Shown in pieces: positions 1-23,700 of a DNA stretch of 64,000 nt. The stretch is taken from assembly GCF_037042905.1 (NCBI RefSeq), contig NC_087245.1:38440001-38504000 (forward strand). Reading direction: 5' to 3'. Position numbers: made by a program. The first letter of the stretch is position 1; every line of letters starts with the position of its first letter. This DNA comes from Lytechinus pictus (Eukaryota).

Positions 1-3000
1 CAGGTCCCTCTGTTAGTGAAGAAGGCATTTAATGGACAATGCTATTTTATCCTGCATTCAAATAAAATGATTAAAATGCTTTACACATTATTGGTAACTA
101 GGTGCGCACTTGTTTTCTTAAAAAAAAAACACACATTCTAATCTTATTTACTCCGTATACTGCTATAGGGCATAAGAATGCATATTATTAATAAGAATAG
201 TGACTTGTAATATTGCTGTTATAAAACATACACGGTAATTGAATGAATATAAACTTCACAAAAGAGAAGCCCATTTGATGACAAAGTATAGATCTATTCA
301 TAGTTGTGGTATAAAATTGCCTCGACACCGCTATTAATAACTCAATTTTTTTGAAACAGTTTTCCGGCATTCTTGTTTAGTTCTGACTTTTTGTGGTTTA
401 TGTGGGCACTCATTGTCAGATTTTCTGCTATTTCTTAATGGTGTCATTTCAATTTGTTTATTTTTATCCTCGGATGATTCGATTTCACTTACATTTAACT
501 CATTGGCTATGGTTAAAAGGCTACTGGGATGTTGAGAACTGTATTGATCCTCGTCACAACTTGAGTCATTAAAGTTTGGTGTGCCGGGATGGGTAGGACT
601 GCTCGATATATTTTTTCGACGCACTACCAAAAGGATTGCTATGATAGGTATTATTAGTATAATCAATGCTACTATAACCCCAAGAATAATAATTATGGTC
701 AACGATCTGGTACTAGTTTTCCCAGTTTTATAGTTCGTTGTAGCGTACTGGTCCCATCTGATAGCATCCGTATCAAGTTTAAAGACGTTTACTGTCGAAG
801 TTTCTGTAATAGGCCTACTTACTGCTATCTCCATACAAAGAGACACGTCAAGGTGATTTATAGTGTGATTTGCCAATTCGCTCGGGTATGAACATACTGG
901 ATTATCAAACCTGACGTATTTCTCGTTGCTTATGGATAGTTGATGATACCACTGACGCAATGGCTCCATGCTGCAGTCGCAATTCAAAGGATTGCCTTTC
1001 AGAAACAGAATTTTGGTGTTGTCTGTCAACACCTCCAAATTCAAATTGTCAAGTTGATGAAGTTTGTTCCATCTCAAATCTAAACGAATGTTCTGAAGAT
1101 AAAGAACATTGCCAATAGAAACCAAACTGTTTCCAGAGAGATTTATGTTCTTTAGGTAATCCATATGTGAAAAGAGATCAATGGATAGAGTTGTGAGAGA
1201 ATTGCTAGAAAGGTCCAGATTGACCAAGGATGAAAGGTCTTTGAAGATATCCTCAGGAAGATTAACCAGTTTGTTCATGCCGAGGAAAAGAAGCTCGAGT
1301 TTCTTTAAATGTTGGAAGACACCGGAAGTGAGTTGGGAAAGACGGTTCTGGTACAGGTCAATGACCTCGAGCTTTGGGACGAGTTGGAAGGTTCCGTTCT
1401 CGATGGCCCTCAGTGAGTTCCTACTCAAGTAGATGTTTTGGAGTCGGTTTTCTGTTCCGTTTAGTGCGTACCGATCGAACACCTGAAGATTGTTGTAGAG
1501 CAGCTTGATCGACTTGAGTTGAGGTGCCCCGATGAATGTATTTGCTTCGATCTGTAAAGATAGAGTGAGACACATTTGTTCAAAATATATATGTATATAT
1601 GATTTTTATATAAAATAAAAGTGGCATGAAAGACTTTGTAACAAATAACACTATTGTGACGAAATTGCCTGGTTCGAACCAATACCAGAATTGAGTAGGT
1701 TTGAACAAACACTTGGCGCCTGAAAAAAATAATCAGATGGAGTCAAAGAGAAAATGTTAAAGAATAAAGAGAAGAGAAGATGGGAGATGGGTGAGAAGAG
1801 AGAGGGGGGAGGGAAGATGATGGAGGAGAGCATGGAGAGAGAGAAAGGGGGAGGAGGGAGAGAGATCATAATGTGAGCGTTTGCCATTAATCAATTAATT
1901 GGGGGAAATGGTTTCATTTACACAATCTAATACAAAATACAAAGTGGAATATAAGTTTTCAAGGAAAAAAAAACTAAAATAGGAACACTCTTAAAATAGT
2001 TGGGCAAAATATGCCAACTTTTAACCAACCCTCGGCAACATACTGTCCATACAACTATTGGTTAAAATCTGCCTATATTGGGTAATATAAACTAATAATT
2101 GGGTAATAAATTTGCTCAATTTGATAATAATTGCCCAGAATATATAATATAATTTTTACTAACATACATTACCCAACACAGTGGACAGTATGTTGCCCAA
2201 CATTTTAAGTTTGTATGCTTATGAGATGTCAAAGTGGAATGAATTCACAAGATAATGCTAGTAGGCCTACACTTCAAATTTCACGTATTTTAAGTTTCTT
2301 TATGTATCCTCTGATCTCCTGTAAATAGTGACTATCAGAACTCTGGATCTAGATCCAAATCAATTTGAATTTAGATTTGAATATGAAATCTTTGTGATTT
2401 AGATATCACTAAAACTATCTGTAGTCAACTTTATTTTGAATCTCAGAATTTCATATCACAAAGATTTGATTTGGGATCAAGACCATAACACAAAATGTTG
2501 GCGATTAATCGCTAAGTGGTGATGGCCAATCCAGATCAATGTTACATTTGTGTTTTGTTCAAAACACTCACTAGAAACCAATCACAGGTGTCCTTTCATA
2601 TTTTGTATTCATCATAAACCCTTGTGTTACTGGGCCCTGATAAAGTAAGGGGAATACCCGGTCATTGTTAACGGTCGTTAATAATAACAATAATGACAGT
2701 TTCATTCTCATTGGTTGCAGTCATTTGAAACCATGCAGTCTCTCGGCGTTCATTGTTGTCTTATGATTAGTCAAATAACGAATGTATTTGAGATTGTTGT
2801 GTTCGAACCAAAAAGGAGTCTGGGTCAAAAAGAAAAATTCTGGTAAATATTTTTACCAACAATTTGGTCAGTTTTTAACAACATTTTGTAGGTTATTCTC
2901 CTGATTTTGTAGCCTCGCACTTCAGGAGAACTACCTGTAATTTTTGCCTATATTGTGTTTATTTTATTGGGGGGGGGCAAATTTCGTGGTAGAAAATTTG

Positions 3001-20700: not shown

Positions 20701-23700
20701 TTGTTTTGGTACATATGTAAAAATGTCTGATTTACCCCCAAATTATGTAGTCTTGCCTTTAGTTGCATGAATATACTTGCAAACACTAACAATTATATTA
20801 TAATATATTTACTGTGGTTATTATGAATAAAATATGATTTGACTCAAATCGTGAGATTTGTCATCTCTTGGCTCAAAGACCGGTGGACGAAAGGTTGACA
20901 ACTGAGAGTCAGGTTTAACATACACGCAAATGTAGGAAAAATGTGAAAGTACAATGAAAAATTCTCAGAAGTGCTTTAGCTTAAACTTGGTGTGAGCAAA
21001 AACAACTAACATATTATAAATAAATTCATTTATCTTACAGCTGGCAAAATTACTTCGATTGTGTTATTTTATAGTGTTATGTTTTAAATATACCCTCTTG
21101 CTCGACATTCTGCAGGACATGGTATCTTGGTACTGGGTCAATTGAATGTCAATGCCAATACAAAAGGCATTCTATGGGTACAATTGAATTGCCTCTGTTT
21201 TAGTGTAATATCAGTGTCGTTCTCAAGTAGTTTTTTGATAAATGGGAAAATATTCACTGAACACCTTTGTGCCAGCCAAATAAGTGTCGTCAAATTGTAA
21301 TGTGTCACCTACTGATTCATAAACGCAATGTAATGTAACATTAAGAAAAAAGAATAAATGACATTAGATGAGGGCTTTATTGCTACAAACAAGTTTTCAG
21401 CAATCACAATTGCATAAAAGGTGCACTGGCTATTTGTTGTTACCAGAATAATCTGAAGATTCGGACACATGAAAGTCATCATTGTCAGTCTACACTCTCA
21501 AAATTGAAACCATGATGTCATAATTAACAATAGATTGATTTCTCTCTTAAGTCTTTAATTTTAATTTGTGCTTTTAAAATTTTTGCAGCTTCTAAATTTT
21601 GTTGAAGGTGTAACCCACATCTAGGCCCTATATTTTATCTCTCCTCATTTTCTTTACATCAGACAGTACTATTTTCATTCGTGGTAATTTCATGATTTAC
21701 ATCAATTAATTATAGTAATTAGCTTAATTAGGTATCTTTTGAACTTCAGTTCAAATTTGACTCACTTATCATTAAAAAATAAGCCAGGGAGCCCCAAAAC
21801 TATTACATATTTAGGTACTGTGATGTTATATATTAAGTTTCTTAATGAAATAAAGATTCATGCTCCCCTCGTCTACCACCATGCAAAACTGGCCAATTGA
21901 TTTAAATAATTGGTAAATACTGGTTAATGAAGTAATGTCAGATCTTTAAAGTAATTGGTATGAAGATTCCCTTTGATGTGATACCAAATGTAGCACATGT
22001 TTTTAAAGTTTTATACCATTCTGTGCTTGTCGCGCAAATGTAACGAACACAACGCATGGTGTTAAACAGTTAATGGGGATGAACGCTCACAATCATACAA
22101 CACAATCATATTTCAAAGTCCATATTTTAAAATGTTTGTTTCCAATCTTATATGATGTAGGCATACTTCGCCAATGAATTATACAAGTCGAGGCACTATA
22201 TACTGCACGTATCTACAAAACATTATACCCTTCACATTCATTTTCTCTTATACCAAGGTTAATACTTACATGTGAGATGTTGTTGTTTGATAGTAAGAGG
22301 TATTTCAGGAAAGGAAAACCTCTAAAAATCTCAGGTCGTATTTTTGCGATGTTATTGTAACGGAGCGATAGATACGAAGCAGCATTGCATTCGATTGGTA
22401 TAGTATCCAATGATCTGTATTCACAGTTCGCCTGCTGAAAAGCCTCGACGTAAGAGCATTTACGATGACATGGCGAAGAACGTTGAGTTTCGGTGCCACG
22501 GCACATGAATAGTATGATCAAGACTTGAAAAAACTTATTAAAAGATTGAACTTCCATTTTAGATATTTCTTGTCCTGAAAATAACGATACGTAGAAATTC
22601 AGCTTTCAAGAGCGTACAAACGCTTAGTTTGATGAAGCAAGCTGTGTGTCAAGCAATTGAATTAACTCAAATCTCCCACTCTTGCATGATTAGTATACAT
22701 ATTCATTACAAGTACGATTCTGTATGTCTTGTGATTGGCTGTAACTATGCGTCATTCATCTTGTGATCGGGAAGTGGGAGGTAACTTTCTTGATGCTCAT
22801 TCACTAATTCGTAGAGGGGCAAATATCATTAATCGCTATAATATATTCATTTACATTTAAATCGTAACCGAAATTCGCAAAGGTGAAGCAGCGCTTTGAT
22901 GAAGCTTTAACGGTTTTTTCCAAAGATTCCACACCTTACAAAATAAACCCGAAAGCTCTCATTTCTTATTCTCTCAAGAGCATATTGATTGAAATAATGC
23001 ATTTATAGTTCTATCATGGTGAAAGAAAATTGTTTAGTTTCAGATAATTCGTTACTTGATCTATGCCACATTCTTCCAACACCATTAGGAAAGAAAAAAA
23101 AATACATGTACGATTAATACAATAAAACTATACCCTAGTTTGTCAGTATAGGCCTACTCTCTGTTATCGTGATATTTTGTTGGTAATTATTGATAATTCT
23201 AGTTCTATTCCGTCATTTTGAAGAGAATAATTTTGCGATCATAATCCCGATTCAGAATTATGTGAACCAATAAAGTTTAGTATTATATCTCTTGGACCAC
23301 AACATGGCGAACATTAAAAATTATGGAGTGGGGATAAATAGGTTCGATATTGTAAATTTACTTTCTGTCGTTGCTGTTGATGATTACCTTCACCACTTTT
23401 CAGAAAATTGTAATGAAACGGATACACCTTGTGCCCCGCCAGAAACCCTGGGTCATCTGCTTAGAAAAAAGCAAAACTGGGTGTTGCATGAAGATAAATG
23501 AAAATATAAGAGCATATTACAAAATCCTCCCTGCTGCTCGCATGACTGGGAGTTCAATGTTCACAAACGATCATTATTTTTGGCGCAGAGCCAGATACGG
23601 TAACGGGACGGTAACCATGGTAATTCCATAAATGAGTAAGTTCATTCGTTCAGTAAAGGGTTTACAGTTCATATTTTCACACAATGGTTCGAAAAGCATC

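What the first reader, a model, noticed from the sequence alone, without database searches (positions are those of the whole stretch)
334..22557. Three-way mosaic: each gene segment groups copies 1-3 differently
Seen: intron and upstream DNA group copy 1 with copy 3; LRR4-LRRCT residues group copy 2 with copy 3 (LRNIY, LRVIE, LKNLE, LVYL, FAHMDYLM.ID, LHLPN, NAEILF, NPW, KDVKID); stalk/TM/tail group copy 1 with copy 2. The tail switch falls at the last LRRCT cysteine (VSLC; about 835, 9422, 16271) inside an exon. Inference: repeated gene conversion or unequal crossover shuffles promoter, ligand-binding and signalling modules independently.
[Added by the scan's program, not by the reader: the finding's places include an assembly gap (unread letters, written N; its length is only estimated) at 8626 to 8812. 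Whether the letters on both sides are continuous or in frame is not known: test that first.]
Basis: partly seen in the sequence, partly recalled or inferred. Interest (0 to 1): 0.68.

Follow-up and report, generated by a model that had tools for sequence, protein, structure and literature searches.

The report
Chimeric copy in urchin LRR-receptor cluster
Three neighbouring sea-urchin genes for leucine-rich-repeat membrane proteins do change their closest relative along their length, but this comes from one later copying event plus a fast-evolving tail, an ordinary pattern for tandem gene families and not a three-way shuffle of modules.

Summary
The window is Lytechinus pictus (sea urchin, not human). 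It holds four two-exon LRR type I membrane genes on the minus strand: c1, c2, c3 and a divergent c4.

- **Confirmed:** 5' flank and intron group c1 with c3. The tail groups c1 with c2. The Cys coordinates 835/9422/16271 are right.
- **Not confirmed:** c2 does not group with c3 in LRR4-LRRCT. At nucleotide level the three copies are equidistant (private changes 40/36/41 of 717). All listed c2=c3 residues are ancestral, and 0 of 36 polarisable sites is a shared c2+c3 derived state.
- **VSLC is not shown to be a breakpoint.** c1-c2 synonymous divergence is the same on both sides (0.25 vs 0.26-0.32). Only dN jumps, and c3 lacks nine codons right after the Cys.
- **The one well-supported recombination edge** lies near the intron/exon-2 junction (c1 1733-1411). 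A tract shared by c1 and c3 at about 5% divergence runs from there to 8355/27184. It ends 85 bp inside a c4-like coding end, so c1 is a chimera.
- **The N gap (8626-8812)** is intergenic. No homology block crosses it, but c1-c2 adjacency rests on it.

Ordinary biology; low interest.

The parts
334..1551 (-). c1 exon 2. Codes for LRR2 to LRRCT, stalk, TM and tail. Stop at 334-336. The last LRRCT Cys codon ends at 835.
   Evidence: ORF and AG acceptor. Pfam LRR_8 at 81.5 bits.
1552..3486 (-). c1 intron, phase 0, GTAAGT...CAG.
   Evidence: The junction NNISH|IEANTF is the one used in the annotated L. pictus proteins.
3487..3774 (-). c1 exon 1 coding part: signal peptide, Cys-rich cap and LRR1, 96 codons.
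8921..10138 (-). c2 exon 2. Stop at 8921-8923. The Cys codon ends at 9422.
   Evidence: The translation is contained exactly in P0003, an NCBI L. pictus protein.
11803..12081 (-). c2 exon 1 coding part, 93 codons, with a 9-nt gap relative to c1 and c3.
15860..16987 (-). c3 exon 2. Stop at 15860-15862. The Cys codon ends at 16271. Nine codons are missing just after the Cys compared with P0005 and P0006.
   Evidence: The translation is contained exactly in P0007.
22270..22557 (-). c3 exon 1 coding part, 96 codons.
16988..22269 (-). c3 intron, 5.3 kb. It is inflated by c3-only insertions at about 17160-17334, about 17963-19374 (holding a reverse-transcriptase fragment at 18134-19096, + strand) and about 20277-22070.
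1700..8355 (-). c1 side of the young c1-c3 tract: most of the intron, exon 1 and the 4.6-kb 5' flank. The proximal edge is estimated at c1 1689, with support 1733-1411.
   Evidence: Divergence is 197/3619 upstream and 113/1308 in the intron. Change point. Edge at 8355.
17150..27184 (-). c3 side of the same tract. It runs into the last 85 bp of the intact c4 coding sequence.
8271..8355 (-). c4-like relic upstream of c1. It covers the last ~28 codons of a c4-type gene and has an in-frame stop. Homology ends abruptly at 8355.
8626..8812 (.). Assembly gap (N), intergenic, between the c4-like relic and the 3' flank of c2.
12112..15859 (-). c2-specific 5' flank ('B'). It has no homology to the c1 or c3 flanks beyond about 36 bp upstream of the ATG.
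   Evidence: only 24-36-bp chance-level hits.
27100..29209 (-). c4, the divergent fourth paralogue. Exon 2 is 27100-28245 and the exon 1 coding part is 28916-29209. It was used as outgroup.
   Evidence: It groups with S. purpuratus P0009.
1820..1843 (.). GA/CT-rich low-complexity tract in the intron, just 5' of the c1-c3 change point. Its counterparts are at 10429-10452 and 17411-17464.

Best explanation
This is a tandem cluster of two-exon genes for LRR type I membrane proteins in Lytechinus pictus. NCBI's automatic name for them is 'LRRC15-like'.

c1, c2 and c3 come from a near-simultaneous radiation. Pairwise synonymous difference in the LRR exon is 0.25-0.29 for all three pairs.

One later event is laid over that radiation. 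A tract made of the last 85 bp of a c4-type gene, the 4.6-kb 5' flank, exon 1 and nearly the whole intron was copied between the c3 and c1 loci. The copy is about 6.7 kb long on the c1 side. Because c4 is intact only beside c3, the direction was probably c3 to c1. The mechanism was a segmental duplication, or a long-tract ectopic repair, that ended near the intron/exon-2 junction. So c1 is a chimera: a c3-like regulatory and 5' half on an older 3' half whose tail is of the c2 type.

The other two 'switches' are not exchanges:
- The c2=c3 residues in LRR4-LRRCT are ancestral states. c1 has simply collected more private replacements.
- The collapse of similarity after the last LRRCT cysteine marks a change of constraint. 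Omega goes from about 0.2 in the LRR to about 0.7-0.8 in the stalk, TM and tail. A c3-specific nine-codon deletion adds to the effect.

Shown: the tract, its two edges, the divergence classes and the ancestral polarity. Inferred: the direction and molecular mechanism of the copying, and co-regulation of c1 and c3 through the shared flank.
For: ORGANISM AND GENE MODEL. P0003 and P0007, both NCBI L. pictus proteins, contain the c2 and c3 exon translations exactly.

YOUNG TRACT.
- c1-c3 substitutions are 197/3619 (5.4%) upstream and 113/1308 (8.6%) in the intron.
- In the LRR exon they are 84/717 (11.7%), and 44/239 (18.4%) at third positions. Fisher p = 1.6e-11 against upstream and 2e-5 against the intron.
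- A coding exon with omega about 0.25 cannot be the same age as flanks that are less diverged than it is.
- The change point is at c1 1689, support 1733-1411: 41/809 against 57/329 differing sites. None of 2000 permutations reached it.
- c2 serves as a control for local rate. Branch lengths c1/c2/c3 are 0.031/0.160/0.030 in the intron and 0.112/0.090/0.119 at third positions of exon 2 nt 318-717 (p = 5.8e-11).

OUTER EDGE. Homology stops at 8355/27184, inside the c4 coding end. The c1-side relic carries an in-frame stop.

LRR REGION.
- It is a star: 41/36/40.
- Of 36 polarisable sites, 15 are private to c1, 9 to c2 and 8 to c3. One is shared by c1+c2, three have different derived states in c1 and c2, and none is shared by c2+c3.
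- In the C-terminal half, four-taxon informative sites are 14 (c1+c2): 8 (c1+c3): 3 (c2+c3) (p = 0.026).

TAIL.
- c1-c2 pS is 0.264-0.321 against 0.254 in the LRR, while dN is 0.25-0.30 against 0.073.
- Tails are homologous across the family (z = 8 for c3 against c1/c2; alignment).
- c3 keeps markers of its own subtype in the LRR as well: c3+P0005 at 92/90.

NO SIGN OF COLLAPSE. The longest exact runs between copies are 129, 71 and 60 bp.
Against: - Exon 1 lies inside the young tract, yet its third positions differ at 12/96 sites against 5.4% in the flank (p = 0.01). Its pattern is star-like (10/11/7). One clean tract does not explain this. It needs small later exchanges, for example the c3 patch coding NNIA, which P0006 shares, or it is chance.
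- The c1-c2 pair also shows a rise in divergence near exon 2 nt 330 (p = 0.0165). Part of the gradient inside exon 2 is therefore a change in constraint, not history.
- Among codons with the same amino acid, c3 differs from c1 or c2 more often in the tail than in the LRR: 17/36 and 18/42 against 35/196 and 40/202. This would fit a real age break at VSLC.
- The excess of non-synonymous changes private to c1 is only borderline (24N:16S against 31N:46S, p = 0.052).
- The direction of copying rests on a single relic.
- About 5% divergence is within the allelic range reported for sea urchins: 2.9-5% in the passages of PMC9557091.
Confidence: 0.6

Rival explanations
1. Module-specific concerted evolution. 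The LRR-coding DNA of all tail types is repeatedly homogenised by short ectopic conversions, including donors outside the window. The stalk, TM and tail are too diverged to pair and so drift apart. The last LRRCT cysteine would then be a true, recurrent tract boundary.
For: - Codons with the same amino acid differ between c3 and c1/c2 at 17/36 and 18/42 sites in the tail, against 35/196 and 40/202 in the LRR (Fisher p = 3e-4 and 0.0025).
- L. pictus paralogues with three different tail types all have about 90% identical LRRs and separate from the S. purpuratus sequences.
- Both exons are star-like while the surrounding non-coding DNA is not.
- Neighbouring variable sites share the same pattern more often than expected: 50 pairs against 37.2, p = 0.007.
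- The N-terminal LRRs of c3 are nearest P0006 and its C-terminal LRRs are nearest P0005.
Against: - In the poorly aligned tail (32-38% identity) perhaps half of the identical residues may be chance matches, which by themselves read as near-saturated. I estimated that share and did not measure it. The synonymous test is therefore inconclusive.
- The clustering of patterns disappears once neighbours 3 bp apart or less are excluded (p = 0.17).
- No GENECONV-like fragment is significant (p = 0.16-0.64).
- c1-c2 show no break at VSLC.
- The LRR of c3 carries the markers of its own tail type.
Confidence: 0.25
2. Three independent exchanges shuffle the promoter, the ligand-binding part and the signalling part. 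One of them is a c2-c3 exchange over LRR4-LRRCT, with a breakpoint at VSLC.
For: - c1 has the most private residues: 19 of 49 variable sites.
- c2-c3 has the fewest non-synonymous differences: 33.5, against 39 and 42.5 for the other pairs.
- Nucleotide homology of c3 to c1 and c2 ends within a few bases of the Cys codon.
Against: - Nucleotide patterns are 41/36/40.
- c2-c3 has the highest pS of the three pairs, 0.294.
- There are 0 shared derived c2+c3 residues among 36 polarisable sites.
- c2+c3 gets 3 of 25 four-taxon informative sites.
- No tree shows a c2+c3 branch.
- c1-c2 pS is uniform across VSLC.
Confidence: 0.07
3. Assembly artefact. The contig left of the gap (c1 and its flank) is a divergent haplotype of the c3-c4 region that was scaffolded in tandem. 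Or the scaffold join is otherwise wrong.
For: - A gap lies exactly between the c1 block and c2.
- c1-c3 flank divergence of about 5% lies within the sea-urchin heterozygosity quoted in PMC9557091 passages (2.9-5%).
- No protein identical to c1 exon 2 was among the 19 hits.
Against: - Collinearity with the c3-c4 region stops on both sides inside the contig. It stops at 8355, 270 bp before the gap, and near the intron/exon-2 junction (about c1 1700).
- Beyond those points c1 carries an exon 2 as diverged from c3 as c2 is, a different tail and a different 3' flank.
- Exon 2 is more diverged than its flanks. An allele would also need a recombination event to explain that.
- There are no long identical stretches: the longest is 129 bp.
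Confidence: 0.1
4. No exchange at all. The three copies share one history, and all the contrasts come from different constraint and lineage-specific rates.
For: - The tail contrast for c1-c2 is fully explained in this way.
- Part of the gradient inside exon 2 is seen in two pairs.
Against: - c1-c3 coding DNA, including first and second codon positions (10.5% and 6.3%), is as diverged as or more diverged than 3.6 kb of flanking non-coding DNA (5.4%).
- The ratio of the c1 and c3 branches to the c2 branch changes about fivefold between intron and exon.
Confidence: 0.03

Closest known systems
Sp185/333 (SpTransformer) gene cluster of Strongylocentrotus purpuratus (PMC3091723; I read the abstract and outline)
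   Same: Both are sea-urchin tandem clusters of small two-exon genes. In both, gene-plus-flank segments are duplicated, similarity extends into the flanks, and gene conversion or duplication is invoked. That paper also warns about collapse and artificial duplication in assemblies of such clusters.
   Different: The proteins are unrelated. In that cluster both edges of the duplicated segments are bounded by microsatellites. Here TRF finds only a GA-rich tract next to the proximal edge and nothing at 8355/27184. Here one edge lies next to or inside a coding exon and produces a chimeric gene.
Vertebrate LRRC15 and related LRR_8 type I membrane proteins. These are the names NCBI's pipeline gave the hits: 'LRRC15-like', 'protein artichoke-like', 'IGFALS', 'SLIT and NTRK-like'
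   Same: Both have LRR_8 repeats between Cys-rich caps, a stalk, one hydrophobic membrane segment and a short cytoplasmic tail with no known domain.
   Different: Orthology was not tested. The best non-echinoderm hits are only 25-38% identical over 31-56% of the query. I found six clear LRR motifs in exon 2 and Pfam matched LRR in exon 1, which is fewer than the 15 repeats I recall for LRRC15. The names are automatic, not functional evidence.
Sequence exchange and chimeric paralogues in tandem LRR receptor clusters, such as plant Cf and RPP5-type resistance loci and sea-urchin TLR arrays (from my own knowledge, not checked in a call)
   Same: In both, tandem LRR genes carry unequal crossover or ectopic conversion products, so that different segments give different nearest relatives.
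   Different: In those systems, as I recall them, exchange and positive selection act mainly on the solvent-exposed LRR residues. Here the LRR part is the conserved part (omega 0.17-0.25). The variable part is the tail (omega 0.7-0.8). The single well-supported exchange carries the flank, exon 1 and intron.

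Membership tests
Extracellular LRR type I membrane protein (Pfam LRR_8 class; 'LRRC15-like' by automatic name) | LRR repeats above Pfam's gathering score | tested here: met
   LRR_8 scores 81.5-117.8 bits against a cut-off of 27 for exon 2 of c1-c4. It scores 32-35 bits for exon 1 of c1-c3.
Extracellular LRR type I membrane protein (Pfam LRR_8 class; 'LRRC15-like' by automatic name) | N- and C-terminal Cys-rich caps (LRRNT, LRRCT) | tested here: inconclusive
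   No LRRNT or LRRCT Pfam model hit at E <= 1. Four-Cys patterns and NPW-C-x-C are visible in the translations. c1 has NPL instead of NPW.
Extracellular LRR type I membrane protein (Pfam LRR_8 class; 'LRRC15-like' by automatic name) | Single membrane span followed by a short cytoplasmic tail | tested here: met
   Read directly from the translations. A hydrophobic run of about 25 residues is followed by R/K-rich residues and then 70-95 more residues. No TM predictor was on hand. Only sub-threshold hits to TM-segment families were found.
Extracellular LRR type I membrane protein (Pfam LRR_8 class; 'LRRC15-like' by automatic name) | Orthology to vertebrate LRRC15 | not tested
   Only automatic names are available. 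No reciprocal search or tree with vertebrate proteins was made.
Toll-like receptor | Cytoplasmic TIR domain | tested here: not met
   No TIR hit in any exon-2 translation or tail.
Chimeric paralogue made by segmental duplication or long-tract ectopic conversion | Adjacent segments of one pair differ significantly in divergence at near-neutral sites | tested here: met
   41/809 against 57/329 differing sites; none of 2000 permutations reached this. Third positions of exon 2 differ at 44/239 sites against 197/3619 upstream, p = 1.6e-11.
Chimeric paralogue made by segmental duplication or long-tract ectopic conversion | The contrast holds relative to a third copy, which controls for local rate | tested here: met
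   Pattern counts are 19/102/20 in the intron and 30/22/34 in exon 2 nt 318-717, p = 5.8e-11.
Chimeric paralogue made by segmental duplication or long-tract ectopic conversion | Defined outer edge and identifiable source context | tested here: met
   Homology ends at 8355/27184, 85 bp inside the c4 coding end. The relic beside c1 has an in-frame stop, and c4 is intact beside c3.
Chimeric paralogue made by segmental duplication or long-tract ectopic conversion | Confirmed in independent reads or individuals, so not an assembly product | not testable with these tools
   No reads and no second assembly were on hand. The gap at 8626-8812 lies between the blocks.
   0 of 36 polarisable sites. 3 of 25 four-taxon informative sites. 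No such branch in the trees.
   c1-c2 show no break: pS 0.254 against 0.264-0.321. c3 against c1/c2 shows an apparent break (17/36 and 18/42 against 35/196 and 40/202), but on a weak tail alignment.
Sp185/333-type microsatellite-bounded segmental duplication | Both edges of the duplicated segment bounded by microsatellites | tested here: not met
   TRF over 1-30000 finds a GA-rich tract at 1820-1843/17411-17464 beside the proximal edge, and none at 8355 or 27184.

The most novel reading that the evidence does not exclude
The exons of this family exchange short patches with paralogues that lie outside the window. As a result, coding DNA of c1 and c3 is two to three times more diverged at third positions than the 6-7 kb of non-coding DNA around it. 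At the same time the LRR module stays about 90% alike across three tail types, and the signalling tails drift apart from the last LRRCT cysteine onward. That would be module-specific concerted evolution with a fixed boundary inside an exon. It would give one conserved ectodomain wired to several diverging cytoplasmic tails.
Probability: 0.25. Interest if true: 0.45.

Novelty: new member of a known kind. Interest (0 to 1): 0.25.

Why it matters
The result gives a worked example of why 'which copies share residues' is a poor guide to history. With only three paralogues, every 'grouping' is just a statement about branch length. The c2=c3 residues turned out to be ancestral.

It also documents a chimeric gene in an echinoderm LRR-receptor cluster. 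A c3-type 5' flank, exon 1 and intron sit on an older exon 2 with a different tail. This predicts that c1 is expressed like c3 but signals like c2, which RNA-seq could test.

The family is unusual among expanded LRR receptors. The ectodomain is the conserved part and the cytoplasmic tail is the fast part.

None of this is unexpected for tandem gene families, and the genes are already annotated. The value is local, for annotation and evolution of this cluster, not general.

Tried and rejected
- **GENECONV-like longest-fragment test inside the LRR exon.** Not significant: p = 0.29, 0.16 and 0.64.
- **Runs test of site patterns.** Significant at p = 0.007, but lost (p = 0.17) once neighbours 3 bp apart or less are excluded. 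It gives no evidence for tracts longer than a codon.
- **Enrichment of variable residues at the x positions of LxxLxLxxN.** 10 of 49 variable sites fall in 30 of 239 positions, odds ratio 2.2, p = 0.088. Not significant.
- **c1 acceleration in N:S changes.** p = 0.052 overall and 0.38 in nt 318-717. A trend only.
- **CpG decay as the cause of the exon excess.** Rejected: non-CpG third positions differ at 41/216 sites, against 161/3443 non-CpG sites upstream.
- **Search for relatives of the c1 tail.** It returned nothing, not even c2, which is 58% identical there. This reflects the tool's word filter and says nothing about uniqueness.
- **Search with the c3 tail.** It found only P0007, P0006 and P0005, all L. 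pictus. Whether tail types predate the Lytechinus/Strongylocentrotus split could not be tested.
- **c4 tail against the other tails.** z = 1.8-3.6 only, so it is of no use for rooting tail types.
- **c2 5' flank against the c1, c3 and c4 flanks.** Only 24-36-bp hits.
- **Pfam LRRNT and LRRCT.** No hit.
- **The listing of cluster members.** It could not be run because the database was switched off. Accessions and contigs of P0003-P0007 stayed unchecked, as did whether P0005 is an allele or a paralogue of c3.
- **The L. pictus genome paper.** Not held, so its assembly method and heterozygosity are not known to me from a call.
- **Literature searches for this family's mosaic.** Searches gave no paper on it. 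Supplementary files were not consulted.
- **Spliced proteins.** They were never joined. All protein work was done exon by exon, and the joined-model step was left out.

Full report
**What is in the window.**
- The region holds four genes on the minus strand. Each has two coding exons split by a phase-0 intron (GTAAGT...AG) between ...NNISH and IEANTF....
- c1: exon 1 coding part 3487-3774, exon 2 334-1551.
- c2: exon 1 11803-12081, exon 2 8921-10138.
- c3: exon 1 22270-22557, exon 2 15860-16987.
- c4, a divergent fourth copy: exon 1 28916-29209, exon 2 27100-28245.
- Exon 2 of all four scores 81-118 bits on Pfam LRR_8. No TIR or other tail domain was found.
- The translations show a signal-like N-terminus, Cys-rich caps, a Ser/Thr-rich stalk, one hydrophobic span and a short tail.
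- The NCBI Lytechinus pictus proteins P0003 and P0007 contain the c2 and c3 exon translations letter for letter. The window is therefore L. pictus, a sea urchin, and not human.
- Those annotated proteins use the same exon junction that I inferred. I never joined exons myself. Every protein search, alignment and tree was made exon by exon, and the step with a joined spliced model was left out.

**The gap.**
- The only N run is 8626-8812. It is intergenic, 109 bp 3' of the c2 stop and 270 bp beyond the end of the c1-c3 homology.
- Its flanks match nothing else in the window and have no family coding similarity.
- No frame and no homology block crosses it. What depends on it is only the physical order c1-c2. 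I did not fill it or look it up.

**Checking the three claimed groupings.** A three-way MAFFT alignment of the gene units gave the following two-against-one counts, in the order c1=c2 / c1=c3 / c2=c3:

| Segment | c1=c2 | c1=c3 | c2=c3 |
|---|---|---|---|
| 136 columns before the ATG | 3 | 54 | 2 |
| Exon 1 | 10 | 11 | 7 |
| Intron | 58 | 303 | 53 |
| Exon 2 up to VSLC (717 ungapped nt) | 41 | 36 | 40 |
| Tail | 101 | 42 | 28 |

- The claims for the flank and intron (c1 with c3) and for the tail (c1 with c2) hold.
- c2 has no detectable homology to the c1 or c3 flank beyond about 36 bp before its ATG.
- The claim for LRR4-LRRCT (c2 with c3) fails. The three patterns are equal at nucleotide level (p = 0.84). 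They are not significantly unequal at amino-acid level: 14/11/19 plus 5 three-way sites, p = 0.33.
- With three sequences, such patterns measure only branch lengths. I therefore polarised the 49 variable LRR residues with five other family members: L. pictus P0004-P0006 and S. purpuratus P0001 and P0008.
- 36 sites were polarisable. 15 are private to c1, 9 to c2 and 8 to c3. One is shared by c1+c2, three have different derived states in c1 and c2, none is shared by c2+c3 and none by c1+c3. The other 13 were ambiguous.
Nearly all are also carried by the S. purpuratus proteins. They are retained ancestral residues.
- With c4 as a fourth taxon, the informative sites in the C-terminal LRR half are 14 (c1+c2), 8 (c1+c3) and 3 (c2+c3) (p = 0.026).
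- The protein trees agree with this. The N-terminal LRRs are unresolved. In the C-terminal LRRs c3 joins P0005 (92/90), and c1 and c2 sit on long unresolved branches. In the tail c1+c2 get 100/99, and c3+P0005+P0006 get 92/88.

**Is VSLC a breakpoint?**
- For c1-c2 it is not. The synonymous proportion is 0.254 in the LRR and 0.264 (pairwise alignment) or 0.321 (family alignment) in the tail. dN rises from 0.073 to 0.25-0.30, so omega goes from about 0.24 to about 0.72-0.77.
- For c3, nucleotide homology to c1 and c2 does stop within a few bases of the Cys codon.
- The tails are nevertheless homologous at protein level (z about 8). They share stalk, membrane and C-terminal motifs across the family.
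- The nearest relatives of c3, P0005 and P0006, keep a nine-residue stretch right after the Cys. That stretch resembles the start of the c1 and c2 stalks, and c3 lacks it.
- Codons with the same amino acid differ more often in the tail (17/36 and 18/42) than in the LRR (35/196 and 40/202; p = 3e-4 and 0.0025). However, at 32-38% identity many tail matches may be chance, and chance matches read as saturated. I regard this test as inconclusive and keep it as the main support for the second-ranked rival.

**The real mosaic edge.**
- Pairwise alignment of c1 and c3 over their whole shared span shows about 5% substitutions across the 5' flank, exon 1 and most of the intron.
- After masking gap edges and a CT-rich stretch, the c1-c3 differences by segment are:

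| Segment | Differing sites | Share |
|---|---|---|
| 5' flank | 197/3619 | 5.4% |
| Intron | 113/1308 | 8.6% |
| LRR exon, all sites | 84/717 | 11.7% |
| LRR exon, first positions | 25/239 | 10.5% |
| LRR exon, second positions | 15/239 | 6.3% |
| LRR exon, third positions | 44/239 | 18.4% |

- CpG decay does not explain the exon excess.
- An exon under purifying selection that is more diverged than its neutral flanks cannot be the same age as them.
- A two-rate change-point scan on intron sites plus exon-2 third positions puts the switch at c1 1689. The support interval is 1733-1411, that is, from about 180 bp before exon 2 to about 140 bp inside it. The rates are 41/809 against 57/329, and none of 2000 permutations reached this.
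- c2 controls for local rate. Branch lengths c1/c2/c3 are 0.031/0.160/0.030 in the c2-alignable intron. They are 0.112/0.090/0.119 at third positions of exon 2 nt 318-717 (p = 5.8e-11).
- These figures fit three lineages that radiated at a depth of about 0.1 per lineage, with c1 and c3 later made alike over a defined tract.
- The distal edge of that tract is sharp. Homology ends at 8355/27184, which is 85 bp inside the 3' end of the c4 coding sequence. The copy beside c1 is a roughly 28-codon relic with an in-frame stop.
- Since c4 is whole only beside c3, the c3 locus is the likelier source. This polarity is an inference.
- A GA/CT-rich tract and a c3-only repeat insertion sit just 5' of the proximal edge. 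No tandem repeat marks the distal edge.

**What does not fit neatly.**
- Exon 1 lies inside the young tract. Even so, it is star-like (10/11/7) and its third positions differ at 12/96 sites (p = 0.01 against the flank).
- Part of this is a cluster of c3-private changes in the codons for NNIA, a state shared with P0006. This hints at small exchanges with paralogues outside the window.
- Inside the LRR exon I found no significant tract.
- The excess of c1 replacements is borderline (p = 0.052). It includes the loss of the Trp in the NPW cap motif.

**Artefact?**
- The copies share no long identical stretch: the longest runs are 129, 71 and 60 bp. A collapsed consensus is therefore unlikely.
- A haplotig placed in tandem cannot be excluded, because about 5% is within the heterozygosity quoted for sea urchins (passages of PMC9557091).
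- Against it, collinearity with the c3-c4 region ends inside the contig on both sides. An allele with an exon older than its flanks would still be a recombinant.

**Comparison with what is known, and verdict.**
- The nearest described precedent in sea urchins is the Sp185/333 cluster (abstract of PMC3091723). It has tandem two-exon genes, duplicated gene-plus-flank segments and suspected conversion. There both edges are microsatellites, which is not the case here.
- A gene named 'LRRC15-like' is the top gene distinguishing secondary from primary spines in L. variegatus (passages of PMC11574069). I could not test whether it belongs to this cluster.
- Two full-text searches found no paper on this family's mosaic. 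Supplements were not seen.
- The finding is a real but ordinary feature of a tandem family. It is a two-part chimera plus a change of constraint, not a three-way shuffle.

Noticed in passing
window 8271-8355 (-): A relic of the last ~28 codons of a c4-type gene lies upstream of c1 and has an in-frame stop. It marks the outer edge of the c1-c3 tract.
   Followed up: yes
window 18134-19096 (+), inside the c3 intron: A reverse-transcriptase fragment (Pfam RVT_1 plus ALKBH8_N-like), antisense to c3. It is part of a c3-only insertion at about 17963-19374. A further c3-only insertion lies at about 20277-22070.
   Followed up: partly
window 38026-40212 (-): A 728-codon open frame with a full RVT_1 domain (127 bits). 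It is probably a non-LTR retrotransposon and is unrelated to the finding.
   Followed up: no
window 17160-17334; also 4938-5038 ~ 17195-17295: A short repeat family with long G and C runs. One copy is inserted in the c3 intron right beside the c1-c3 change point. Others lie in the c1 5' flank. Its frames read as Gly/Pro-rich 'ORFs' in several places in the window.
   Followed up: partly
window 12353-12949 and 56944-57541: An element with inverted arms (12353-12559 against 12744-12949) in the c2-specific 5' flank. A second copy, 83% identical, lies 44 kb away. Shorter relatives lie near 44928-45482.
   Followed up: no
window 1985-2216, 17601-17829 and 35205-35435: A ~230-bp stretch of the c1 and c3 introns recurs on the opposite strand at 35.2 kb, at 88-91% identity. 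A dispersed repeat therefore sits inside the shared intron.
   Followed up: no
c3 exon 2 (15860-16987) against P0005 and P0006: At protein level the N-terminal LRRs of c3 are nearest P0006 (98%), and its C-terminal LRRs and tail are nearest P0005 (95% and 89%). c3 may itself be a mosaic of its own subtype, or P0005 may be an allele or an older gene model. This could not be tested without their DNA.
   Followed up: partly
P0001 and P0002 (S. purpuratus hits): Both annotated proteins contain an internally repeated LRR block, or a second gene start after a complete tail. They look like gene models that fuse neighbouring tandem copies.
   Followed up: no
window 5960-6026 and 24585-24657: A trinucleotide (ATC/TCA) microsatellite sits at matching places in the c1 and c3 5' flanks. 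It produces Met/Thr/Ile-rich pseudo-ORFs.
   Followed up: no
window 60700-61730: A strongly strand-skewed purine/pyrimidine low-complexity block (GC skew 0.34, AT skew 0.37). It is open in several frames on both strands.
   Followed up: no
window 3790-3792, 12098-12100, 22574-22576 (about 18 nt before each ATG): All three copies have a polypyrimidine-AG acceptor just upstream of the start codon. This suggests an unmapped non-coding 5' exon, so the true promoters lie further upstream.
   Followed up: no
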